From positions 4,261-68,260 of the forward strand of contig CAZNZK010000003.1 in NCBI GenBank assembly GCA_964577595.1: a stretch of 64,000 bases of DNA, in the 5' to 3' direction. This document shows, piece by piece, positions 1 to 52,664 of the stretch. Positions within the stretch are counted from its first letter, which is position 1. Every line of letters starts with the position of its first letter. Source of the DNA: an uncultured Candidatus Saccharibacteria bacterium (lineage in GTDB: Bacteria > Patescibacteriota > Minisyncoccia > Phycocordibacterales > JAKAEA01). The notes under the pieces are model-generated. The model saw only the letters and a program-made list of their open reading frames with translations. It ran no database searches and was not told the origin of the DNA. Position numbers and translations under genes: made by a program.

Positions 1-50
1 TCTCGTTAGGCTCATTCAAGGGAGGAATCCGCTGAAATAAAAAATAGATA

Positions 51-82
51 AAAATAAAATCACCTTTTGGTGATTTTATTTT
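51..82. terminator. Perfect 14-bp inverted repeat (aaaataaaatcacc/tttt/ggtgattttatttt), bidirectional terminator-like hairpin
   Basis: Perfect stem with A/T runs on both sides. Confidence 0.5.
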
Positions 83-331
83 ACTTCGAACCATTATCCG
101 CAAGGTGGACATGGTCATAGAAAGTTGGAACTCACTCCATCTGTGGGTTTTAGAGGCGTCTGAGGCGATTTTAGGGGTTCGGGAATTGAAAATAGCCTGA
201 TAAATCGGCGATAAAACCGGTCATCGGGGTCACAAGATGAGATTGGAATAATATCTAGTCTAGGTATAGACTGAACGTATCTTCAGAAGGAAAAGAAAAG
301 AATACTGTCCGGATAACAATTAAAATTATAA

Positions 332-1665: not shown

Positions 1666-2260
1666 AGGTTTTCCAAGCAATACGCACGTGTAGGATAAAT
1701 AAGACAGGGTTTGATACTGCATAACAGTATAAAAAGCAGTATAAGATTCACTTGTTAAACAGGCTAATAACAGGCGATAGCTCGCTGCTGAACAGTGTAA
1801 TAACAGCGTAAAGGCAACCGATTAAAACGGTGAATAATCGGTTAGGGAACGGTTTGAACTATCTTCCCAGCTAAACTAGCTAATAACTGGTGCTAAATAG
1901 CGAAATCGACAACGGAAAGGTTACCAAATAAATTGGTGGGTAATTGACTGAGGAACAGGCCAAGAACAGGCATCCGCTGCAACTGCTCATCAGTTAAATA
2001 ACAGTTAAAACCCGTGCCGCACACTTGAATTAAGGTCCTATTTGTGGGACTATTGGCTTACAACTAAATATGGAGAGTAGCCTAAACTAGCAAGCGATTG
2101 CTAGCATGGTGAAAAAGTCAGGACGTGCATAAAGAACCCATCATGGGGTCGCATGTCCTGCCACATCGGGAAACTGGTGTGAGTGGCTCCGGCTACTACC
2201 CGTGGTGGGCTTTTTGTAAGCTTGCTACGGGTATCTATAAGCTAAGTAGCTATAAATACC
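1666..2260. repeat. 600-bp non-coding region with repeated (A/T)AATAACAG / GAACAG motifs and several perfect hairpins; candidate origin/regulatory region or ncRNA
   Basis: No ORF of 60 aa or more on + strand. The 5-mer AACAG occurs 8 times; four copies sit in ...ATAACAG... context. Hairpins include aaccgatta/taatcggtt, ctagcaa/ttgctag and caggacgtgc/gcatgtcctg. A GC-rich stem plus T-run (..cccgtggtgggctttttgt) lies just before the next gene. Confidence 0.4.
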
Positions 2261-4833: not shown

Positions 4834-6311
4834 CCGACCAGAAAGGTTACGAGGTAGAAAAAGTATTTAGAGATAGCTTCACTGGAAAAGGTGATTTCTT
4901 TGCCCGCCCAGCAATGGCTGAGCTATTGCGCTATCTCGATGCTCATCCTAGAGATTCCTACGTGGTTATTTTTGATGACTTGAAGCGGTTCGCCAGAGAT
5001 GTGGTCTTTCACTGGAAGCTAAAACAAGAATTTAGTTCCCGTGGCATCAAACTCGAATGTCTCAATTTTACCTTTGAAGATACGCCTGAGGGGAGATTCA
5101 TTGAAACAATTATGGCGGGGCAGGGGCAGCTTGAACGTGAACAAAACCGCAGACAGGTGCTGCAGAAAATGAAAGCGAGGTTGGAGGCGGGGTATTGGTG
5201 TTTTCCAGACTTGCCAGAAGGCTACGAGTTTATTAAAAGCCCTGTGCATGGCAAATTACCCGTTCTGGTGCAGCCTAAGGCGGCAATAGTGAAAGAGGCG
5301 CTTGAGAGTTTTGCCTCAGGGAGATTAATGGAGCAGGAGGATGTGCGAAAATTCCTAGAGCAAAAAGATATACGAGACGGTAAGCCCGTTTATCTTGATT
5401 ATGTAAAGAGGATGCTTATGAGAATCTTCTATACGGGCTATATCGAATACCCACTCTGGGAGGTGAGTAGGAGACAGGCTAGACACGAGGCCTTAATTGA
5501 TTCGGCAACATATGACCGCATTCAAGAGCGATTGAATGGCAAAACCACCACTCATACTAAAAATTATCTCAATCCTGATTTTCCACTACGCAGCTTTGTT
5601 CTTTGCTCGACATGTAAACAACCAATGACGGCAAGCTGGAGCACTGGTAGCAACGCCAAATTCGCTTATTACCGCTGTAAAACAAAAGGGTGCATAGAAC
5701 GGAACAAGAGTGTGGCTAAGGGGGTTATAGAGGGTGAGTTTGAGTCAATTCTAGGCAAAATAAATCCAAGCAGTGAAGTTCTGAATCTGACCAAAGCAAT
5801 TATTGCGGATGTGTGGCAGAAGAAAATTGCTAACCGTGTAAATGAGAAGAAAGAAATAGAGCAGAAGATTCAGAGATTGATTTCCGAAAAGGAAAAACTA
5901 GTTGGACTAGCTCTGAGGGCTGCTGACGACGGAGTGAGAATGGCATACGAAGAAAAAATATCGGAAATAGTCGGAATAAGCAGAGTTCTAAATAATTCTC
6001 TAGAGTCCTTTGATAGACATGTCCCAAACGTTGAAACCGCATTGAATATCGTATTCGACTTCTTAAAAAATCCTTTGAAACAATGGCAGAAGGGGAATAT
6101 CCATACCAAAAAGCTAGTTCTAAGACTAGTGTTTGAGCAGAATTTGGCATACAGCCGAAAAACTGGGTTTGAAACTGCTATTTTGTCGCTACCTCTAAGG
6201 GTATTTGGCCTCCCAGAGGCTCAAAAATCGATGCTAGTGGAGATGCGCGGAATCGAACCGCGGTGCAGGAGGGATTCAATGGATGATTCTACAGCGTGTA
6301 GCTGCCTTTGA
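4737..6311 (+). CDS. large serine recombinase / integrase
   Basis: N-terminal resolvase catalytic domain (MQKSLIYCRVSSQRQ..SLESQ). Recombinase domain present. Zinc-ribbon (CSTCKQPM...YYRCKTKGC) and coiled-coil C-terminus. The last about 25 codons are antisense of the tmRNA T-arm (..MRGIEPRC..), i.e. the ORF crosses the attachment junction. Confidence 0.9.
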   Translation: MQKSLIYCRVSSQRQKIEGHGLESQEHRCQQLADQKGYEVEKVFRDSFTGKGDFFARPAMAELLRYLDAHPRDSYVVIFDDLKRFARDVVFHWKLKQEFSSRGIKLECLNFTFEDTPEGRFIETIMAGQGQLEREQNRRQVLQKMKARLEAGYWCFPDLPEGYEFIKSPVHGKLPVLVQPKAAIVKEALESFASGRLMEQEDVRKFLEQKDIRDGKPVYLDYVKRMLMRIFYTGYIEYPLWEVSRRQARHEALIDSATYDRIQERLNGKTTTHTKNYLNPDFPLRSFVLCSTCKQPMTASWSTGSNAKFAYYRCKTKGCIERNKSVAKGVIEGEFESILGKINPSSEVLNLTKAIIADVWQKKIANRVNEKKEIEQKIQRLISEKEKLVGLALRAADDGVRMAYEEKISEIVGISRVLNNSLESFDRHVPNVETALNIVFDFLKNPLKQWQKGNIHTKKLVLRLVFEQNLAYSRKTGFETAILSLPLRVFGLPEAQKSMLVEMRGIEPRCRRDSMDDSTACSCL

Positions 6312-6650
6312 TCGGCGCATCACTTTTTGCAAAGTGGTACCCCATTTAAGCCTTACGGGTAAGAAAGAAGCAAAATTCCCGGAAGGCCGAGTCGCTTATT
6401 TCGGCAGGCGGCGCGACAGGCGCTTGCTATATTCCGAGTATGAGCATCGGGATGTGACTGATCGGACATCAATCACGCGATGTCGCTTAGGCCGTAGCGT
6501 AAGCGAATGCAGGGATCCCCTTAAAATAAGGAGAAGCTACTGCACCAAGTGCGTTTTTGGCACTTAAAAGGTTTGTGGCAGATTAAGGAGTTACCACAGC
6601 TCCACGTCGCTCATCCAAAGAGCAAACTCCTGTCTAGGCCGATCATCCCC
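6238..6650 (-). ncRNA. ssrA: tmRNA (ssrA)
   Basis: On the minus strand: 5' GGGGATGATCGGCCTAGACAGG... and 3' ...CGCGGTTCGATTCCGCGCATCTCCA (T-arm plus acceptor strand pairing with 5' GGGGATG). CCA is not encoded; the next bases are CTA. Adjacent to smpB. A candidate tag frame ends ...AFAYATA-TAA, but this is uncertain without a covariance model. Confidence 0.75.
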
Positions 6651-13233: not shown

Positions 13234-13247
13234 GATTTATATTAGTG

Positions 13248-13321
13248 TCCACCCCCTTGGAGTCGAACCAAGGACCGCCGAGGTATAAGCTCGGTGCTCT
13301 AACCAACTGAGCTAGGGGTGG
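13248..13321 (-). tRNA. tRNA-Ile with anticodon UAU (reads AUA)
   Basis: Hand-folded cloverleaf. Acceptor CCACCCC/GGGGTGG. D-arm GCTCAGTTGGTTAGAGC. Anticodon stem CCGAG/CTCGG with loop CTTATAC (anticodon TAT). T-arm CTTGG-TTCGACT-CCAAG. Discriminator A. CCA not encoded. Confidence 0.7.
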
Positions 13322-50152: not shown

Positions 50153-51010
50153 ATGGCAGATGGCGACGCCAAACCTGGCGATAAAAAAGACGACAAAAAA
50201 GAAGGTTCCGCTTTGAGCGATTTTGTTGGCCTCGGCGCTTTAGAGTGGGGCGTTATTGGCATTATTTTTTTTGCCGCGGTTTTGCGAATTGAGCGTTTTT
50301 TTGCGGGCACCTCGGCGAGTGGTTCTGTCGGCGGCGCGACAAGCCAGTTCACTTCTTGGTTGGCCGCAAATCCAGGCGTTACTGTTGCGGTTGACACGGC
50401 CCGTCTTTGGGCTTCAGAAACCTACCGCTCTTTCGTTGCTGTTTCCACCGGTTTCTCTGTGCTTATGGTTGCTATGATTAGCTACATTAGTTTTCGCCAG
50501 TATGAAATCTACAAAGAATGGCGGGCGAAAATATATCCCCAAGTACCCACGCCATCTACGCGGGTGGCGGCTTCCGAAATCCCAATGAGCGCCGGCCAAG
50601 GTGCGCCTATTCCCGCCAATTTACCTACCGGCTTGCCAACCGATTTTCCGGCGGGCGTGCCACTTTTCTCCCGTTCCGACCAGCATTCTCAAGCACCTAA
50701 TCCGCGCTGGAAGCAGGTGCTCGCGCATATTGGTTCCGACAATCCGAGCGATTGGCGTCTCGCTATTTTGGAGGCCGACATTGTTCTTGAAGAAACGCTT
50801 GATCGCGCCGGTTATGTTGGCGAAACCCTCGGTGATAAGCTTAAAAGTGCTGAACGTCGCCCGTTCAATTCGCTCAATGCCGCCTGGGAGGCACACAAAA
50901 TCCGCAACGCTATTGCTCACCAAGGTCAGGGTTTTGAACTCAATCAACGCGAAGCTTCCCGTGTTGTTGGACTTTTTGAAGCTGTTTTTCGCGAATTTGG
51001 CTCGGCCTAA
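50153..51010 (+). CDS. membrane protein with C-terminal HEPN-like domain (Rx4H motif)
   Basis: Two TM segments. The C-terminal about 100 aa, ..AWEAHKIRNAIAHQGQ.., contains an R-N-x3-H motif. Family assignment is tentative. Confidence 0.45.
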   Translation: MADGDAKPGDKKDDKKEGSALSDFVGLGALEWGVIGIIFFAAVLRIERFFAGTSASGSVGGATSQFTSWLAANPGVTVAVDTARLWASETYRSFVAVSTGFSVLMVAMISYISFRQYEIYKEWRAKIYPQVPTPSTRVAASEIPMSAGQGAPIPANLPTGLPTDFPAGVPLFSRSDQHSQAPNPRWKQVLAHIGSDNPSDWRLAILEADIVLEETLDRAGYVGETLGDKLKSAERRPFNSLNAAWEAHKIRNAIAHQGQGFELNQREASRVVGLFEAVFREFGSA

Positions 51011-51051
51011 TATTGCGTTTGCCGCTTTTTCTGGTATAGTATAAACCCCAT

Positions 51052-51125
51052 AGCGGGGTAGTGGAACGGCACCACGTCAGGCTCATAACCTGAAGAAATA
51101 GGTTCAACTCCTGTCCCCGCCACCA
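51052..51125 (+). tRNA. initiator tRNA-fMet (anticodon CAU), CCA encoded
   Basis: Acceptor AGCGGGG/CCCCGCC with an unpaired 1:72 (A.C). U8 and A9 present. D-arm GTGG-AACGGCA-CCAC. Anticodon loop CTCATAA, the initiator-type loop. T-arm ATAGG-TTCAACT-CCTGT. Discriminator A plus CCA. Confidence 0.7.
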
Positions 51126-51198
51126 GATTTTTGGTACTATCACAATAGTTTTTAAATGTCGGAGTAGCTGTCTTGGCAGGGCAGGAAAGGACAAAAAC

Positions 51199-51271
51199 GT
51201 CGGAGTAGCTCAGTTGGTAGAGCACAGGACTCATAAGCCTGGGGTCGTGGGTTCGATCCCCACCTCCGACA
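51199..51271 (+). tRNA. tRNA-Met (CAU anticodon; elongator, or possibly tRNA-Ile2/lysidine type)
   Basis: Acceptor GTCGGAG/CTCCGAC fully paired. D-arm GCTCAGTTGGTAGAGC. Anticodon loop CTCATAA. T-arm GTGGG-TTCGATC-CCCAC. Confidence 0.7.
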
Positions 51272-51284
51272 CATTTGCTTTTTG

Positions 51285-51712
51285 TAAGAAAATAGGGTAT
51301 ATTATCAGTGGGACCGAGGGTTCGGCTGAAATTGTAGGGTATGGATATCCTCCAGCTATTCCCTTCGAATCTGTCCCAGTCGGGTCTACTTTTCATGGAG
51401 GTAGACATGTTCCACTCACTTCTTTCCGTATCAGGCTCCTGTGCAACGCAGGAGGGGACCGCCCGGTCCCAAACGAGTTTCAGTTGCTCCTCAAAACAGG
51501 AGGAACTGAAAGCGGTTCACCGGAATCGCGCACTTCGGATGCGTAAGGCCGCAGAGGGTCGCTCCTCGCGCCTTACTCAACGTTTCGGTGTGCGGATGCC
51601 GGCGGACATGGAAATGTCGGTTGTCGCAACATTCTGACAACTGACACGCCAGGAGGGGGAATAAGGGGGTTTCGTGCAGAATCGATGTGCACGAGACCCC
51701 TATTTTTATGGT
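51285..51712 (+). ncRNA. candidate structured ncRNA (about 430 nt), family unknown; ends in a strong intrinsic terminator
   Basis: No protein-like ORF; the track ORFs here have non-protein composition. Many perfect local helices: ctcctg/caggag, gggacc/ggtccc, tttcagttgctcctc..gaggaactgaaa, gtaaggc..gccttac, gacat-GGAA-atgtc, ggttgtc..gacaacc. Terminal nested hairpin gggggtt-tcgtgca...tgcacga-gacccc is followed by TATTTTTAT. No RNase P P4 or SRP domain IV motifs were seen. Confidence 0.35.
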
Positions 51713-51891
51713 TGATTTTTTTGACACACAGAAGTATGATTTAATTGGGTGGAAAGATTGCGCGCGCAGTCTACTATCCAGGTTTCTTACTAAGGAGAGA
51801 CAGGCATGAGGTCTTCTCTTACTTCACACAATCAGGGGGAGCTTCGTCGCTCCTCTTTCTTTTTGTCAAAAATCTGATATATTTTAAAAAT

Positions 51892-51965
51892 GCGCTCGTG
51901 GTGTAGCCTGGTAGCACGTTCCCCTGTCACGGGAAAGGTCGTGGGTTCAAATCCCATCGAGCGCG
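51892..51965 (+). tRNA. tRNA-Asp (anticodon GUC)
   Basis: Acceptor GCGCTCG/CGAGCGC. Anticodon stem TTCCC/GGGAA with loop CTGTCAC. T-arm GTGGG-TTCAAAT-CCCAT. Discriminator G. Confidence 0.8.
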
Positions 51966-51968
51966 CCC

Positions 51969-52664
51969 ATGATGTTATTGCTAATTGGCTTGGCTGCGGG
52001 TATTGCTACTTTTATCGGTGGCTCGCTGGCTCTGCGCTTGCGTGATCGTTTGCATTTGATTCTTGGCTTTACGGCCGGTGCCATTATTGCCGTGGCCTTT
52101 TTTGACTTATTGCCGGAAGCACTTTCACTTGGGGAAAAAATCTACAGCCCACTTGCCATCACTACAGTACTGGCACTCGGCTTCTTGTTATACATGTTGC
52201 TTGATCGGGCTCTTTTGAGCGCACGCATGGGTACCCGTGGACATGTGGGTGCGGCGAGCTTGACGATGCATAGTTTTTTGGATGGCTTGGCTATTGGTCT
52301 CGCATTTCAAGTTTCCAGCGCTGTCGGCATGGTAGTGGCAATTGCGGTGTTGGTGCATGATTTTTCCGATGGTATCAATACGGTTAATTTGAGCATGACG
52401 GGTGGGGCAAGTGCAAAAATTGCTCGGCGCTGGCTTATTGCCGATGCGGTAGCGCCTCTGGTTGGGATCGGTGCCACCTTGCTCGTTTCTGTACCACAAC
52501 AATCACTCGCCCTCATTTTGGCGCTTTTTTCAGGGTTCTTTTTATATATTGGTGCCAGCGAGCTATTGCCGGAAAGCTATCATAATCATCCACGTCTCTG
52601 GACGAGCGTGGCCACCGTCCTCGGTATGCTCGTGCTTTTAATCGCCATCCGGGTTGCTGGTTAA
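51969..52664 (+). CDS. ZIP-family metal (zinc) transporter (ZupT-like)
   Basis: HSFLDGLAIG and VLVHDFSDG metal-binding TM motifs. 8 TM segments. Confidence 0.8.
   Translation: MMLLLIGLAAGIATFIGGSLALRLRDRLHLILGFTAGAIIAVAFFDLLPEALSLGEKIYSPLAITTVLALGFLLYMLLDRALLSARMGTRGHVGAASLTMHSFLDGLAIGLAFQVSSAVGMVVAIAVLVHDFSDGINTVNLSMTGGASAKIARRWLIADAVAPLVGIGATLLVSVPQQSLALILALFSGFFLYIGASELLPESYHNHPRLWTSVATVLGMLVLLIAIRVAG

What the first reader, a model, noticed from the sequence alone, without database searches (positions are those of the whole stretch)
51272..51891. 620-bp non-coding interval between tRNA-Met and tRNA-Asp containing a long structured RNA candidate and a leader-peptide-like mini-ORF
The interval is packed with perfect local helices, including a GGAA-capped hairpin. 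It ends at about 51712 with a nested GC hairpin plus U-tract, arguing for a discrete roughly 430-nt transcript on the + strand. The sequence lacks RNase P P4, SRP domain IV or 6S hallmarks. Its size and tRNA-adjacent position are reminiscent of large ornate ncRNAs (ROOL/GOLLD-like), but I cannot assign a family. Downstream (51807..51875) a 22-codon ORF with a good SD (AAGGAGAG-ATG: MRSSLTSHNQGELRRSSFFLSKI) overlaps a GGGGAGC..GCTCCTC hairpin plus T-run, like a leader-peptide attenuator preceding tRNA-Asp.
Basis: seen in the sequence. Interest (0 to 1): 0.55.

Follow-up and report, generated by a model that had tools for sequence, protein, structure and literature searches.

The report
Unclassified 400-nt structured RNA beside tRNAs

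Summary
The interval (51273-51890) is real and far more structured than chance (z = -7.7). It is not one element. It holds two back-to-back transcription units plus the promoter of tRNA-Asp.

Unit A (~51309-51709, + strand, ~400 nt) consists of:
- a promoter abutting tRNA-Met;
- a 70-nt 5' helix domain;
- a hairpin that buries a GGAGG;
- a conserved pyrimidine tract;
- a ~230-nt body of near-perfect hairpins;
- a strong terminator.

No Rfam family matches, even at E <= 10. Its 76-codon ORF has no protein homologue among 1.84 billion representatives and scores poorly for coding potential. Its fold z-score is -6; 81 real coding chunks of the same window average -0.3, with a minimum of -3.2.

The same layout, with an unalignable body sequence, occurs at the same site in one other Paceibacteria genome, and weakly in a third. 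The closest relative lacks it.

Unit B (~51747-51866) is the conserved 5' part of a small gene that runs to 68 codons in that relative and to 23 here. tRNA-Asp has its own promoter, so the attenuator reading fails.

Verdict: a genuine, unclassified, lineage-restricted structured RNA, possibly also translated. Its function is unproven and only two or three homologues are known. Moderate interest.

The parts
51199..51272 (+). tRNA-Met (CAT), left boundary
   Evidence: ARAGORN and Rfam.
51275..51303 (+). Inferred promoter of unit A: TTGCTT (51275-51280), 17 nt, TATATT (51298-51303)
   Evidence: Read from the sequence. The same TTGCTT-17-TATATT sits at the same distance after tRNA-Met in L005, and L007 has TTGACT-17-TACCAT. 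The consensus scan did not flag it; by my count the -35 hexamer matches only 3 of 6, below the scan's threshold of 4. It is inferred from conservation, not shown.
51309..51709 (+). Unit A: ~400-nt highly structured transcript (ends inferred)
   Evidence: Fold z = -7.66. The + strand is 33 kcal/mol more stable than the - strand, with 15 versus 4 G-U pairs. No Rfam match.
51308..51379 (+). 5' domain: stacked helices P1-P3 (GUGGGAC...GUCCCA enclosing CGAGGG...CCCUUCG and GGCUG...CAGCU)
   Evidence: Best-conserved part shared with L005. Over this domain plus the following hairpin, 18 tested pairs are 100% paired in both sequences and 4 changed on both sides; slid controls give 47-64% paired. The covariance model R1 finds only the window and L005 in 632 kb of related loci, plus a weak reduced match in L007 (8.3 bits).
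51384..51406 (+). Hairpin GUCUACUUUU-CAU-GGAGGUAGAC that buries a GGAGG Shine-Dalgarno-like sequence just before the ATG at 51407
   Evidence: Predicted in every fold. GGAGG pairs with CUUUU through U-G and U-A pairs. L005 has an equivalent hairpin, GGCCAUCU...AGGAAGGCC, before its ATG.
51416..51427 (+). Conserved pyrimidine tract UCACUUCUUUCC
   Evidence: UCACUUCUCUC in L005, UCAUUUCUUUU in L007 and L078, always just after the 5' hairpin domain. It is largely unpaired in the predicted folds.
51407..51637 (+). 76-codon ORF inside unit A (98 codons from the ATG at 51341); translation unproven
   Evidence: No homologue in either protein search. No Pfam or NCBIfam hit. Coding-potential score -2.7 against +16.2 +/- 8.5 for true gene chunks. 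AlphaFold2 gives one helix, pLDDT 65.6, pTM 0.29.
51436..51646 (+). Body of unit A: five near-perfect hairpins (51436-51454, 51455-51470, 51474-51514, 51515-51607, 51615-51646)
   Evidence: Fold z = -5.96. 81 coding chunks of the same window give mean -0.32, sd 1.06, minimum -3.16.
51665..51709 (+). Intrinsic terminator of unit A (GGGGGUUUCGUGCA...UGCACGAGACCCC followed by UAUUUUUAU)
   Evidence: About 84% identical to the L005 terminator over 45 nt.
51712..51740 (+). Promoter of unit B: TTGATT, 17 nt, TATGAT
   Evidence: Consensus scan. Aligned with TTGACG-17-TATATT in L004.
51756..51771 (+). GC palindrome GATTGCGCGCGCAGTC in the 5' UTR of unit B (RNA hairpin or operator)
   Evidence: I5. A perfect 16-bp palindrome, GATTGCGCGCGCAATC, occupies the same place in L004.
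51792..51877 (+). Unit B Shine-Dalgarno AAGGAGAG (51792-51799) and 23-codon ORF MRSSLTSHNQGELRRSSFFLSKI (51806-51877)
   Evidence: The start region is conserved with the 68-codon ORF of L004, MRSSLSHNKSSES....
51834..51866 (+). Intrinsic terminator of unit B, inside the mini-ORF
   Evidence: Terminator scan: 9-bp stem, 5 G-C pairs, T-run.
51873..51883 (+). Extended -10 promoter of tRNA-Asp (TCTG-A-TATATT); the TG doubles as part of the mini-ORF stop codon
   Evidence: The motif TCTGnTAnnnT lies 7-34 nt (mostly 7-20) upstream of tRNA-Asp in 14 of 44 loci by a strict pattern, and in more with one-base variants on reading the printed sequences.
51891..51969 (+). tRNA-Asp (GTC), right boundary

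Best explanation
The interval is a small mosaic of three things: two self-contained promoter-to-terminator units, then the promoter of tRNA-Asp. Unit A (~51309-51709, + strand) is a lineage-restricted, ~400-nt RNA whose secondary structure is itself under selection. It has a conserved 5' three-helix domain, a hairpin that occludes a GGAGG, an exposed conserved pyrimidine tract (UCACUUCUUUCC, which resembles the 16S anti-Shine-Dalgarno tail), a fast-evolving body of about five near-perfect hairpins, and a strong terminator. I propose that it works mainly as an RNA: a stable regulatory or scaffold transcript. The conserved single-stranded pyrimidine tract is the likely contact site. It could pair in cis with its own GGAGG, or in trans with purine-rich ribosome-binding sites. 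The hairpin body would give stability or bind protein. The 76-codon ORF may be translated, since a ribosome-binding site is present but occluded, which would make this a dual-function RNA. Its peptide sequence, however, is not what is conserved. Unit B (~51747-51866) is the 5' part of a small-protein gene that is full length (68 codons) in the nearest relative and truncated to 23 codons here. It is not a regulator of tRNA-Asp. Shown: the structure excess, the strand bias, the absence of any family match, the conserved layout in L005, and the homology of unit B to the L004 gene. Inferred: the transcript ends, action at the RNA level, and the role of the pyrimidine tract.
For: Structure. Unit A has z = -7.66 and its ORF body alone z = -5.96. 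The L005 counterpart has z = -8.75 overall and -7.13 for the body. 81 coding chunks of this window give mean -0.32 and minimum -3.16.

Strand. The + strand is more stable than the - strand in the window, L005 and L007, with more G-U pairs.

Conservation. At the same site after tRNA-Met, L005 has the same promoter, 5' domain, SD hairpin, pyrimidine tract and terminator. 18 of 18 tested pairs are kept and 4 changed on both sides. The hairpins lie in the same order at an offset of about -10 nt. The consensus fold of the two bodies is -42.5 kcal/mol, against -12 to -30 kcal/mol for reversed, rotated or unrelated controls. L007 keeps a reduced core.

Not a known RNA. No Rfam hit in the window at E <= 10 or in the relatives at E <= 1.

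Weak coding signal. There is no protein homologue in 5.8 billion or 1.84 billion sequences. BLASTP between the window and L005 ORFs finds nothing. The coding-potential score is more than two sd below real genes. Stop triplets are rare in all three frames simply from composition, so a long ORF is weak evidence. L005 has two overlapping long ORFs.

Unit B and tRNA-Asp.
Against: Only two clear homologues and one weak one were found, so covariation is thin, and the structural alignment of the bodies was fitted to structure. The nearest relative (L004, neighbour protein 78% identical) lacks unit A altogether, so it is dispensable. A canonical GGAGG sits 5 nt before an ATG, and ORFs run almost to the terminator in the window, L005 and L007 (ORF length versus shuffles p = 0.024, 0.055, 0.072). 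The window and L005 ORFs show a weak in-frame local similarity (p about 0.008 by shuffling). Other genomes carry ordinary small ORFs with loosely similar N-termini at the same site. No expression data exist and no target is known. The body helices are almost all Watson-Crick pairs, so a DNA-level or mutational origin of the palindromes is not excluded.
Confidence: 0.5

Rival explanations
1. Unit A is simply a fast-evolving small-protein gene: 76 residues, basic, Ser/Arg-rich and mostly disordered. It would belong to a loose family of small ORFs that occupy the tRNA-Met/tRNA-Asp spacer in Paceibacteria. The heavy mRNA structure would serve only to stabilise the message or throttle translation.
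For: GGAGG sits 5 nt before an ATG. The ORFs end just before the terminator in three genomes. Window versus L005 gives an in-frame local alignment with p about 0.008. The same site in L013, L078, L098, L011 and L004 holds SD-linked ORFs of 66-120 codons whose N-termini loosely share S-[HKR]-[RND]-x-[GS]. The start regions of units A and B resemble each other.
Against: No homologue in a full HMMER scan of 1.84 billion proteins. No BLASTP similarity to the L005 ORF with default statistics. The weak protein alignment is offset by +12 nt, whereas the hairpin register is offset by about -10 nt, so the two cannot both reflect homology. Coding-potential scores are -2.7, -11.9 and -10.8, against +16.2 +/- 8.5 for real genes. 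In L007 the frame that contains the conserved tract has no ATG. Fold z-scores of -6 to -7 lie outside the coding range of this genome, while the ordinary small ORFs at this site give z of about -1. Stops are rare in all frames from composition alone.
Confidence: 0.3
2. Unit A is a relic with no current function. It would be left by insertions and rearrangements at a tRNA-linked hot spot, with its perfect hairpins produced by mutational processes (template switching or palindrome formation) rather than kept by selection.
For: The content between tRNA-Met and tRNA-Asp differs in almost every genome examined: gaps of 40 to 1580 bp holding unrelated small genes or tRNA-like repeats. L004 has 1 kb of other ORFs in place of unit A. 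A fragment of the tRNA-Met 5' end is duplicated at 51154-51183, and a T-rich 17-mer flanks units A and B. The body helices are nearly all Watson-Crick pairs.
Against: The layout, promoter, 5' domain and terminator persist between genomes whose neighbouring protein is only 51% identical. The helices remain perfect although the body sequence is no longer alignable, which neutral decay would not allow. The + strand is favoured through G-U pairs.
Confidence: 0.12
3. The whole interval is one large ROOL/GOLLD-like ornate RNA, or a very divergent RNase P, 6S or SRP RNA, followed by a leader-peptide attenuator that controls tRNA-Asp.
For: Size, position next to tRNAs and richness in helices. A short ORF overlaps a terminator just upstream of tRNA-Asp.
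Against: No Rfam match at E <= 10 in the window or at E <= 1 in three syntenic relatives. The 5' and 3' ends do not pair with each other, and no P4-type conserved strands are present. The mini-ORF unit has its own promoter and is homologous to a 68-codon gene in L004. The peptide has no Asp codons. A conserved tRNA-Asp promoter lies downstream of the terminator.
Confidence: 0.04

Closest known systems
Dual-function (coding plus regulatory) bacterial RNAs such as Staphylococcus RNAIII/hld, SgrS/SgrT and SR1/SR1P (from general knowledge)
   Same: An autonomous promoter-to-terminator unit of several hundred nucleotides, many hairpins, a small ORF with an occluded ribosome-binding site, and an exposed pyrimidine-rich segment that could pair with Shine-Dalgarno regions.
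   Different: No sequence or covariance-model relationship. No target, partner protein or expression data. The peptide is not conserved. The phylum is different (Patescibacteria). Membership cannot be claimed; the resemblance is one of architecture only.
Large structured RNAs of unknown function that often lie near tRNA genes: ROOL (RF03087) and GOLLD (RF01998)
   Same: Structured, non-annotated, adjacent to tRNAs, function unknown.
   Different: No Rfam match at E <= 10. About 400 nt instead of roughly 580-800 nt. A chain of simple hairpins with a fast-evolving body rather than a conserved ornate multi-junction core. Found in only 2-3 genomes.
fourU-type RNA thermometers and other SD-occluding hairpins (from general knowledge)
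   Same: In the window, four consecutive U pair with the GGAG of the Shine-Dalgarno sequence in a short hairpin directly before the ATG.
   Different: The U-run is not conserved: L005 occludes its SD with CCAUCU. The downstream ORF is not a heat-shock or virulence gene. A temperature response was not testable.
Leader-peptide transcription attenuators (trp, his and pheA leaders; from general knowledge)
   Same: A short ORF that overlaps a terminator hairpin upstream of another gene.
   Different: No run of cognate codons, an independent promoter between the terminator and tRNA-Asp, homology to a longer free-standing gene, and the downstream gene is a tRNA rather than a biosynthetic operon.

Membership tests
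Bacterial RNase P RNA (RF00010/RF00011) | Match to the covariance model | tested here: not met
   No hit at gathering score or at E <= 10 in 51100-52000. None in L004, L005, L007 or L010 at E <= 1.
Bacterial RNase P RNA (RF00010/RF00011) | P4 helix built from the conserved strands (GAGGAAAGUCC / ACAGAA..CCGGCUUA) and a P1 helix joining the 5' and 3' ends | tested here: not met
   Neither strand is present in 51273-51890. The 5' end closes locally within 70 nt and the 3' end is a terminator hairpin.
ROOL, GOLLD, OLE, HEARO and raiA large ncRNAs | Match to the Rfam covariance model | tested here: not met
   All 4227 Rfam 15 models were scanned at E <= 10; only tRNA and tRNA-derived chance matches appeared.
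6S RNA and SRP RNA | Covariance-model match; for 6S a closing stem plus a central bubble; for SRP the domain IV loops | tested here: not met
   No covariance-model hit. No end-to-end closing stem.
Leader-peptide transcription attenuator | Leader ORF enriched in codons for the amino acid being sensed | tested here: not met
   MRSSLTSHNQGELRRSSFFLSKI contains no Asp.
Leader-peptide transcription attenuator | The regulated gene is transcribed only by read-through of the leader terminator, with no promoter in between | tested here: not met
   An extended -10 promoter at 51873-51883 lies between the terminator and tRNA-Asp, and the motif recurs upstream of tRNA-Asp in many loci. Promoter activity itself was not measured.
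Leader-peptide transcription attenuator | Mutually exclusive antiterminator and terminator helices coupled to ribosome position | tested here: inconclusive
   The minimum-energy fold of unit B offers an alternative pairing of the SD with the 3' arm of the terminator. It is not conserved in L004, where the ORF continues for 68 codons.
fourU RNA thermometer | A run of four U pairing with the SD in a hairpin next to the start codon | tested here: inconclusive
   Met in the window (51390-51393 with 51397-51400). Not met in L005, where the SD is occluded by a different sequence. Melting behaviour is not testable here.
Type I toxin-antitoxin | A small hydrophobic (membrane) toxin ORF and an antisense or overlapping antitoxin RNA | tested here: not met
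   The 76- and 23-residue products are Ser/Arg-rich and not hydrophobic. No promoter-like site on the minus strand of 50500-52500.
Known protein families (for the 76-residue ORF) | Detectable homology to any protein | tested here: not met
   Only the identical sequence was found in the 5.8-billion and 1.84-billion searches. No Pfam or NCBIfam hit.

The most novel reading that the evidence does not exclude
Unit A is the founding member of an undescribed class of ~400-nt structured RNAs in a Paceibacteria (Patescibacteria) lineage. It would be a stable RNA whose conserved 5' domain and exposed anti-Shine-Dalgarno-like pyrimidine tract let it bind ribosome-binding sites, or a ribosomal or RNA-binding protein. 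In these minimal genomes it would thus supply a piece of translational control that protein regulators provide elsewhere.
Probability: 0.25. Interest if true: 0.6.

Novelty: new member of a known kind. Interest (0 to 1): 0.4.

Why it matters
Patescibacteria have tiny genomes with little room for non-essential sequence, and their regulatory RNAs are almost unknown. A 400-nt transcript whose structure excess rivals that of tmRNA or riboswitch-class RNAs, with its own promoter and terminator and kept at one site across genera, would be a rare lead to RNA-based regulation in this uncultured phylum. It also shows that the spacer between tRNA-Met and tRNA-Asp is a hot spot where small genes and RNAs are gained, truncated and replaced. 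The practical value is limited until more homologues or expression data exist.

Tried and rejected
1. Rfam was run at gathering score on the whole window, at E <= 10 on the interval, and at E <= 1 on four syntenic loci. Nothing matched beyond tRNAs.

2. The 76-residue ORF was searched as a protein. The word-index search, a full HMMER scan, Pfam and NCBIfam all returned nothing. AlphaFold2 gives a single helix at low confidence.

3. Homologue collection:
   - The metagenome scan returned one useless locus.
   - Look-ups of closer relatives gave contigs too short on the downstream side, or no DNA.
   - Relatives of the downstream ZIP gene sit at a different locus.
   - Viral, phage and plasmid collections gave no match.

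4. A motif and helix descriptor search, and covariance model R1 of the 5' domain, found no further members in 632 kb.

5. L078 and L013 share the pyrimidine tract after a 5' hairpin, so I first took them for homologues. They are ordinary small-ORF mRNAs (z about -1) and were dropped from the RNA family.

6. A group I intron in a split tRNA (known in Patescibacteria, PMC13011429) was considered. It was rejected because the unit has an internal promoter and terminator and no flanking tRNA halves.

7. CsrB-like GGA-loop sponges, retron or RT-associated ncRNAs, REP-like repeats and integron attC sites were considered. They were rejected for lack of GGA loops, of an adjacent RT, and of repeated copies in the window.

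8. A whole-window fold z-score scan timed out. It was replaced by scans of the intergenic gaps, which showed no second unit of this kind.

Full report
**Source and boundaries.** The window is a contig of an uncultured Patescibacteria (Paceibacteria/Parcubacteria) genome. The protein encoded just upstream has 715 relatives, and every one that carries a source name is Patescibacteria-type. The same 620 bases occur unchanged in three independent assemblies. ARAGORN and Rfam place tRNA-Met at 51199-51272 and tRNA-Asp at 51891-51969. The interval is therefore 51273-51890.

**Anatomy.** The sequence and its relatives show three consecutive modules.

- Unit A begins with TTGCTT-17-TATATT directly after the tRNA (51275-51303). 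The promoter scan did not flag it; by my count the -35 box matches only 3 of 6, below the scan's cut-off. L005 has the same two hexamers at the same place, however.
- After the promoter come a 70-nt 5' domain of stacked helices and a 10-bp hairpin, GUCUACUUUU/GGAGGUAGAC, that buries a GGAGG.
- An ATG follows at 51407, then a pyrimidine tract UCACUUCUUUCC, about 230 nt made of five near-perfect hairpins, and a 13-14-bp terminator with a U-tract.
- Unit B has TTGATT-17-TATGAT (flagged), a 16-bp GC palindrome, AAGGAGAG, the 23-codon ORF and a terminator inside that ORF.
- The last 20 bases hold TCTG-A-TATATT, an extended -10 promoter ending 7 nt before tRNA-Asp.

**Known RNA families.** None of the 4227 Rfam 15 models matches the interval, at gathering score or at E <= 10. 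None matches the syntenic stretches of L004, L005, L007 or L010 at E <= 1. The RNase P P4 strands are absent and the ends do not pair with each other. Membership of the RNase P, 6S, SRP, ROOL, GOLLD, OLE, HEARO and raiA families was therefore tested and not met.

**Relatives.** The gene order LigA-GatC-GatA-(285-residue protein)-tRNA-Met-tRNA-Met-...-tRNA-Asp-tRNA-Thr is widely kept in Paceibacteria. What lies between the second tRNA-Met and tRNA-Asp is highly variable. Gaps run from about 40 to 1580 bp and hold unrelated small ORFs, secreted or membrane proteins, a ~190-residue enzyme-like ORF, or tRNA-like repeats.

- **L005** (GCA_027341405.1; neighbour protein 51% identical) has a clear counterpart of unit A. 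It shares the promoter, the 5' domain, an SD-occluding hairpin, UCACUUCUCUC and a terminator 84% identical over 45 nt. The 230-nt bodies cannot be aligned by sequence. Both are nevertheless chains of perfect hairpins in the same order, at an offset of about -10 nt.
- In the 5' region, 18 of 18 tested pairs hold in both sequences and 4 changed on both sides. Slid controls give 47-64% pairing.
- A structure-aware alignment of the bodies gives a consensus fold of -42.5 kcal/mol. Reversed, rotated or unrelated controls give -12 to -30 kcal/mol. This is suggestive, but the alignment was fitted to structure and there are only two sequences.
- **L007** (46% identical) keeps only a reduced core: GUGG, one helix and the tract (8.3 bits, E = 0.012 in a 581-nt search).
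- Model R1 finds nothing else in 632 kb of related loci.
- **L004**, the nearest relative (78% identical), has 1 kb of small membrane-protein ORFs where unit A would be, but it does have unit B.

**Coding or not?**

In favour of coding:
- A canonical GGAGG lies 5 nt before an ATG.
- ORFs of 76, 73 and 65 codons end shortly before the terminator in the three genomes (ORF length versus shuffles p = 0.024, 0.055, 0.072).
- The window and L005 products show a weak in-frame local alignment (p about 0.008 by shuffling).
- Ordinary small ORFs with loosely similar N-termini sit at this site in other genomes.

Against coding:
- The product has no homologue in the 5.8-billion word-index search or in a full HMMER pass over 1.84 billion representatives.
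- It has no Pfam or NCBIfam hit.
- BLASTP against the L005 ORF finds nothing.
- A three-periodic Markov model trained on 42 genes of this window scores true 228-nt gene chunks at +16.2 +/- 8.5. The three ORFs score -2.7, -11.9 and -10.8.
- Stop triplets are rare in all three frames simply from composition: 5-7 in 230-260 nt, as in shuffles. L005 has two overlapping long ORFs.
- The weak protein alignment implies an offset of +12 nt, which conflicts with the hairpin register.
- The ORF bodies fold with z = -5.96 and -7.13. 81 coding chunks of this window give mean -0.32, sd 1.06, minimum -3.16. The ordinary small ORFs at this site in L078, L013 and L004 give z of about -1.
- The + strand is favoured through G-U pairs in all three genomes.

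I conclude that selection acts on the RNA structure. Translation of the ORF is possible but unproven, and its peptide sequence is not what is conserved.

**Mechanism (inferred).** The conserved parts are the promoter, the 5' domain, occlusion of the GGAGG, and the exposed pyrimidine tract. That tract (UCACUUCUUUC) resembles the 16S 3' tail CACCUCCUUUC with C-to-U changes that still allow wobble pairing to GGAGG. This comparison rests on general knowledge of the 16S tail; the organism's own 16S is not in the window. The tract could compete with the upstream CUUUU for the RNA's own GGAGG, forming a translational switch. Alternatively it could pair in trans with ribosome-binding sites, as the C/U-rich seeds of RNAIII-type or RoxS-type RNAs do. 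The variable hairpin body would give stability or bind protein.

**Unit B and the attenuator idea.** About 110 nt covering the promoter, the GC palindrome, the SD and the first codons align with L004. There the same ATG opens a 68-codon ORF with its own terminator, about 260 nt before tRNA-Asp. In the window the ORF stops after 23 codons, inside a terminator. The window copy is thus a truncated or remodelled version of a free-standing small gene. The peptide has no Asp. The tRNA-Asp promoter motif lies downstream of the terminator and recurs upstream of tRNA-Asp in many loci regardless of what precedes it. The leader-peptide attenuator is not supported.

**Novelty and limits.** Unit A is a real, unclassified structured RNA candidate confined, as far as I could see, to two or three genomes. 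No expression data were available. Interest is moderate: a good lead to RNA biology in Patescibacteria, but not yet a family.

Noticed in passing
window 50153-51010 (+): The 285-residue protein upstream of the tRNA cluster has an N-terminal membrane segment. Its conserved C-terminal domain carries an invariant R-N-x-x-x-H motif (R251, N252, H256 in alignment A1). Family members give weak Pfam hits to HEPN families: HEPN_Swt1 in 13 of 35, RiboL-PSP-HEPN in 9 of 35 (best E = 5e-4). It may be a membrane-anchored HEPN-type RNase, kept next to GatCAB and the tRNA-Met/Asp/Thr cluster across Paceibacteria (715 relatives). No Pfam or NCBIfam model reaches significance for the window protein itself.
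   Followed up: partly
L007 4957-5092; L017 4971-5125; L016 4989-5330 (tandem copies); L024 4145-4280; L035 4294-4450; L045 3938-4140: Directly after tRNA-Met, several relatives carry 130-170-nt elements. Each starts with an acceptor-like 5' strand and ends with a copy of the tRNA 3' end (...CCACCTCCGACA), with hairpins and a long T-arm-like stem in between. They are tRNA-derived structured elements or integration scars. In L007 no Rfam match was found at E <= 1; the other loci were not scanned.
   Followed up: partly
window 51154-51183: The spacer between the two tRNA-Met genes contains an 80%-identical copy of the first 30 nt of the second tRNA-Met (AAATGTCGGAGTAGCTGTCTTGGCAGGGCA). This is a sign of past duplication or rearrangement at the locus.
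   Followed up: no
window 51873-51891 and the tRNA-Asp upstream regions of the L0xx loci: An extended -10 promoter (TCTGnTAnnnT) ends only 7 nt before the mature 5' end of tRNA-Asp in the window, and 7-20 nt before it in most matching relatives. This suggests tRNA transcripts with little or no 5' leader.
   Followed up: partly
window 2079-2197 (+): LOOT RNA (RF03000), 81.4 bits, full-length match.
   Followed up: no
window 6235-6650 (-): tmRNA, 88 bits, with tag peptide AKNALGAVASPYFKGIPAFAYATA.
   Followed up: no
window 13247-13321 (-): ARAGORN calls a tRNA-Ile with the uncommon anticodon TAT.
   Followed up: no
window 1-200 (+): Strong local structure (z = -7.8), mostly from a hairpin-plus-T-run at about 55-85. 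Only a sub-threshold Rfam hit was found (ohsC_RNA, 26 bits, E = 0.12).
   Followed up: partly
window 51965-51971: The ATG of the ZIP transporter gene (51969) overlaps the encoded CCA end of tRNA-Asp. In other relatives the ZIP gene lies at a different locus next to an ECF sigma factor.
   Followed up: partly
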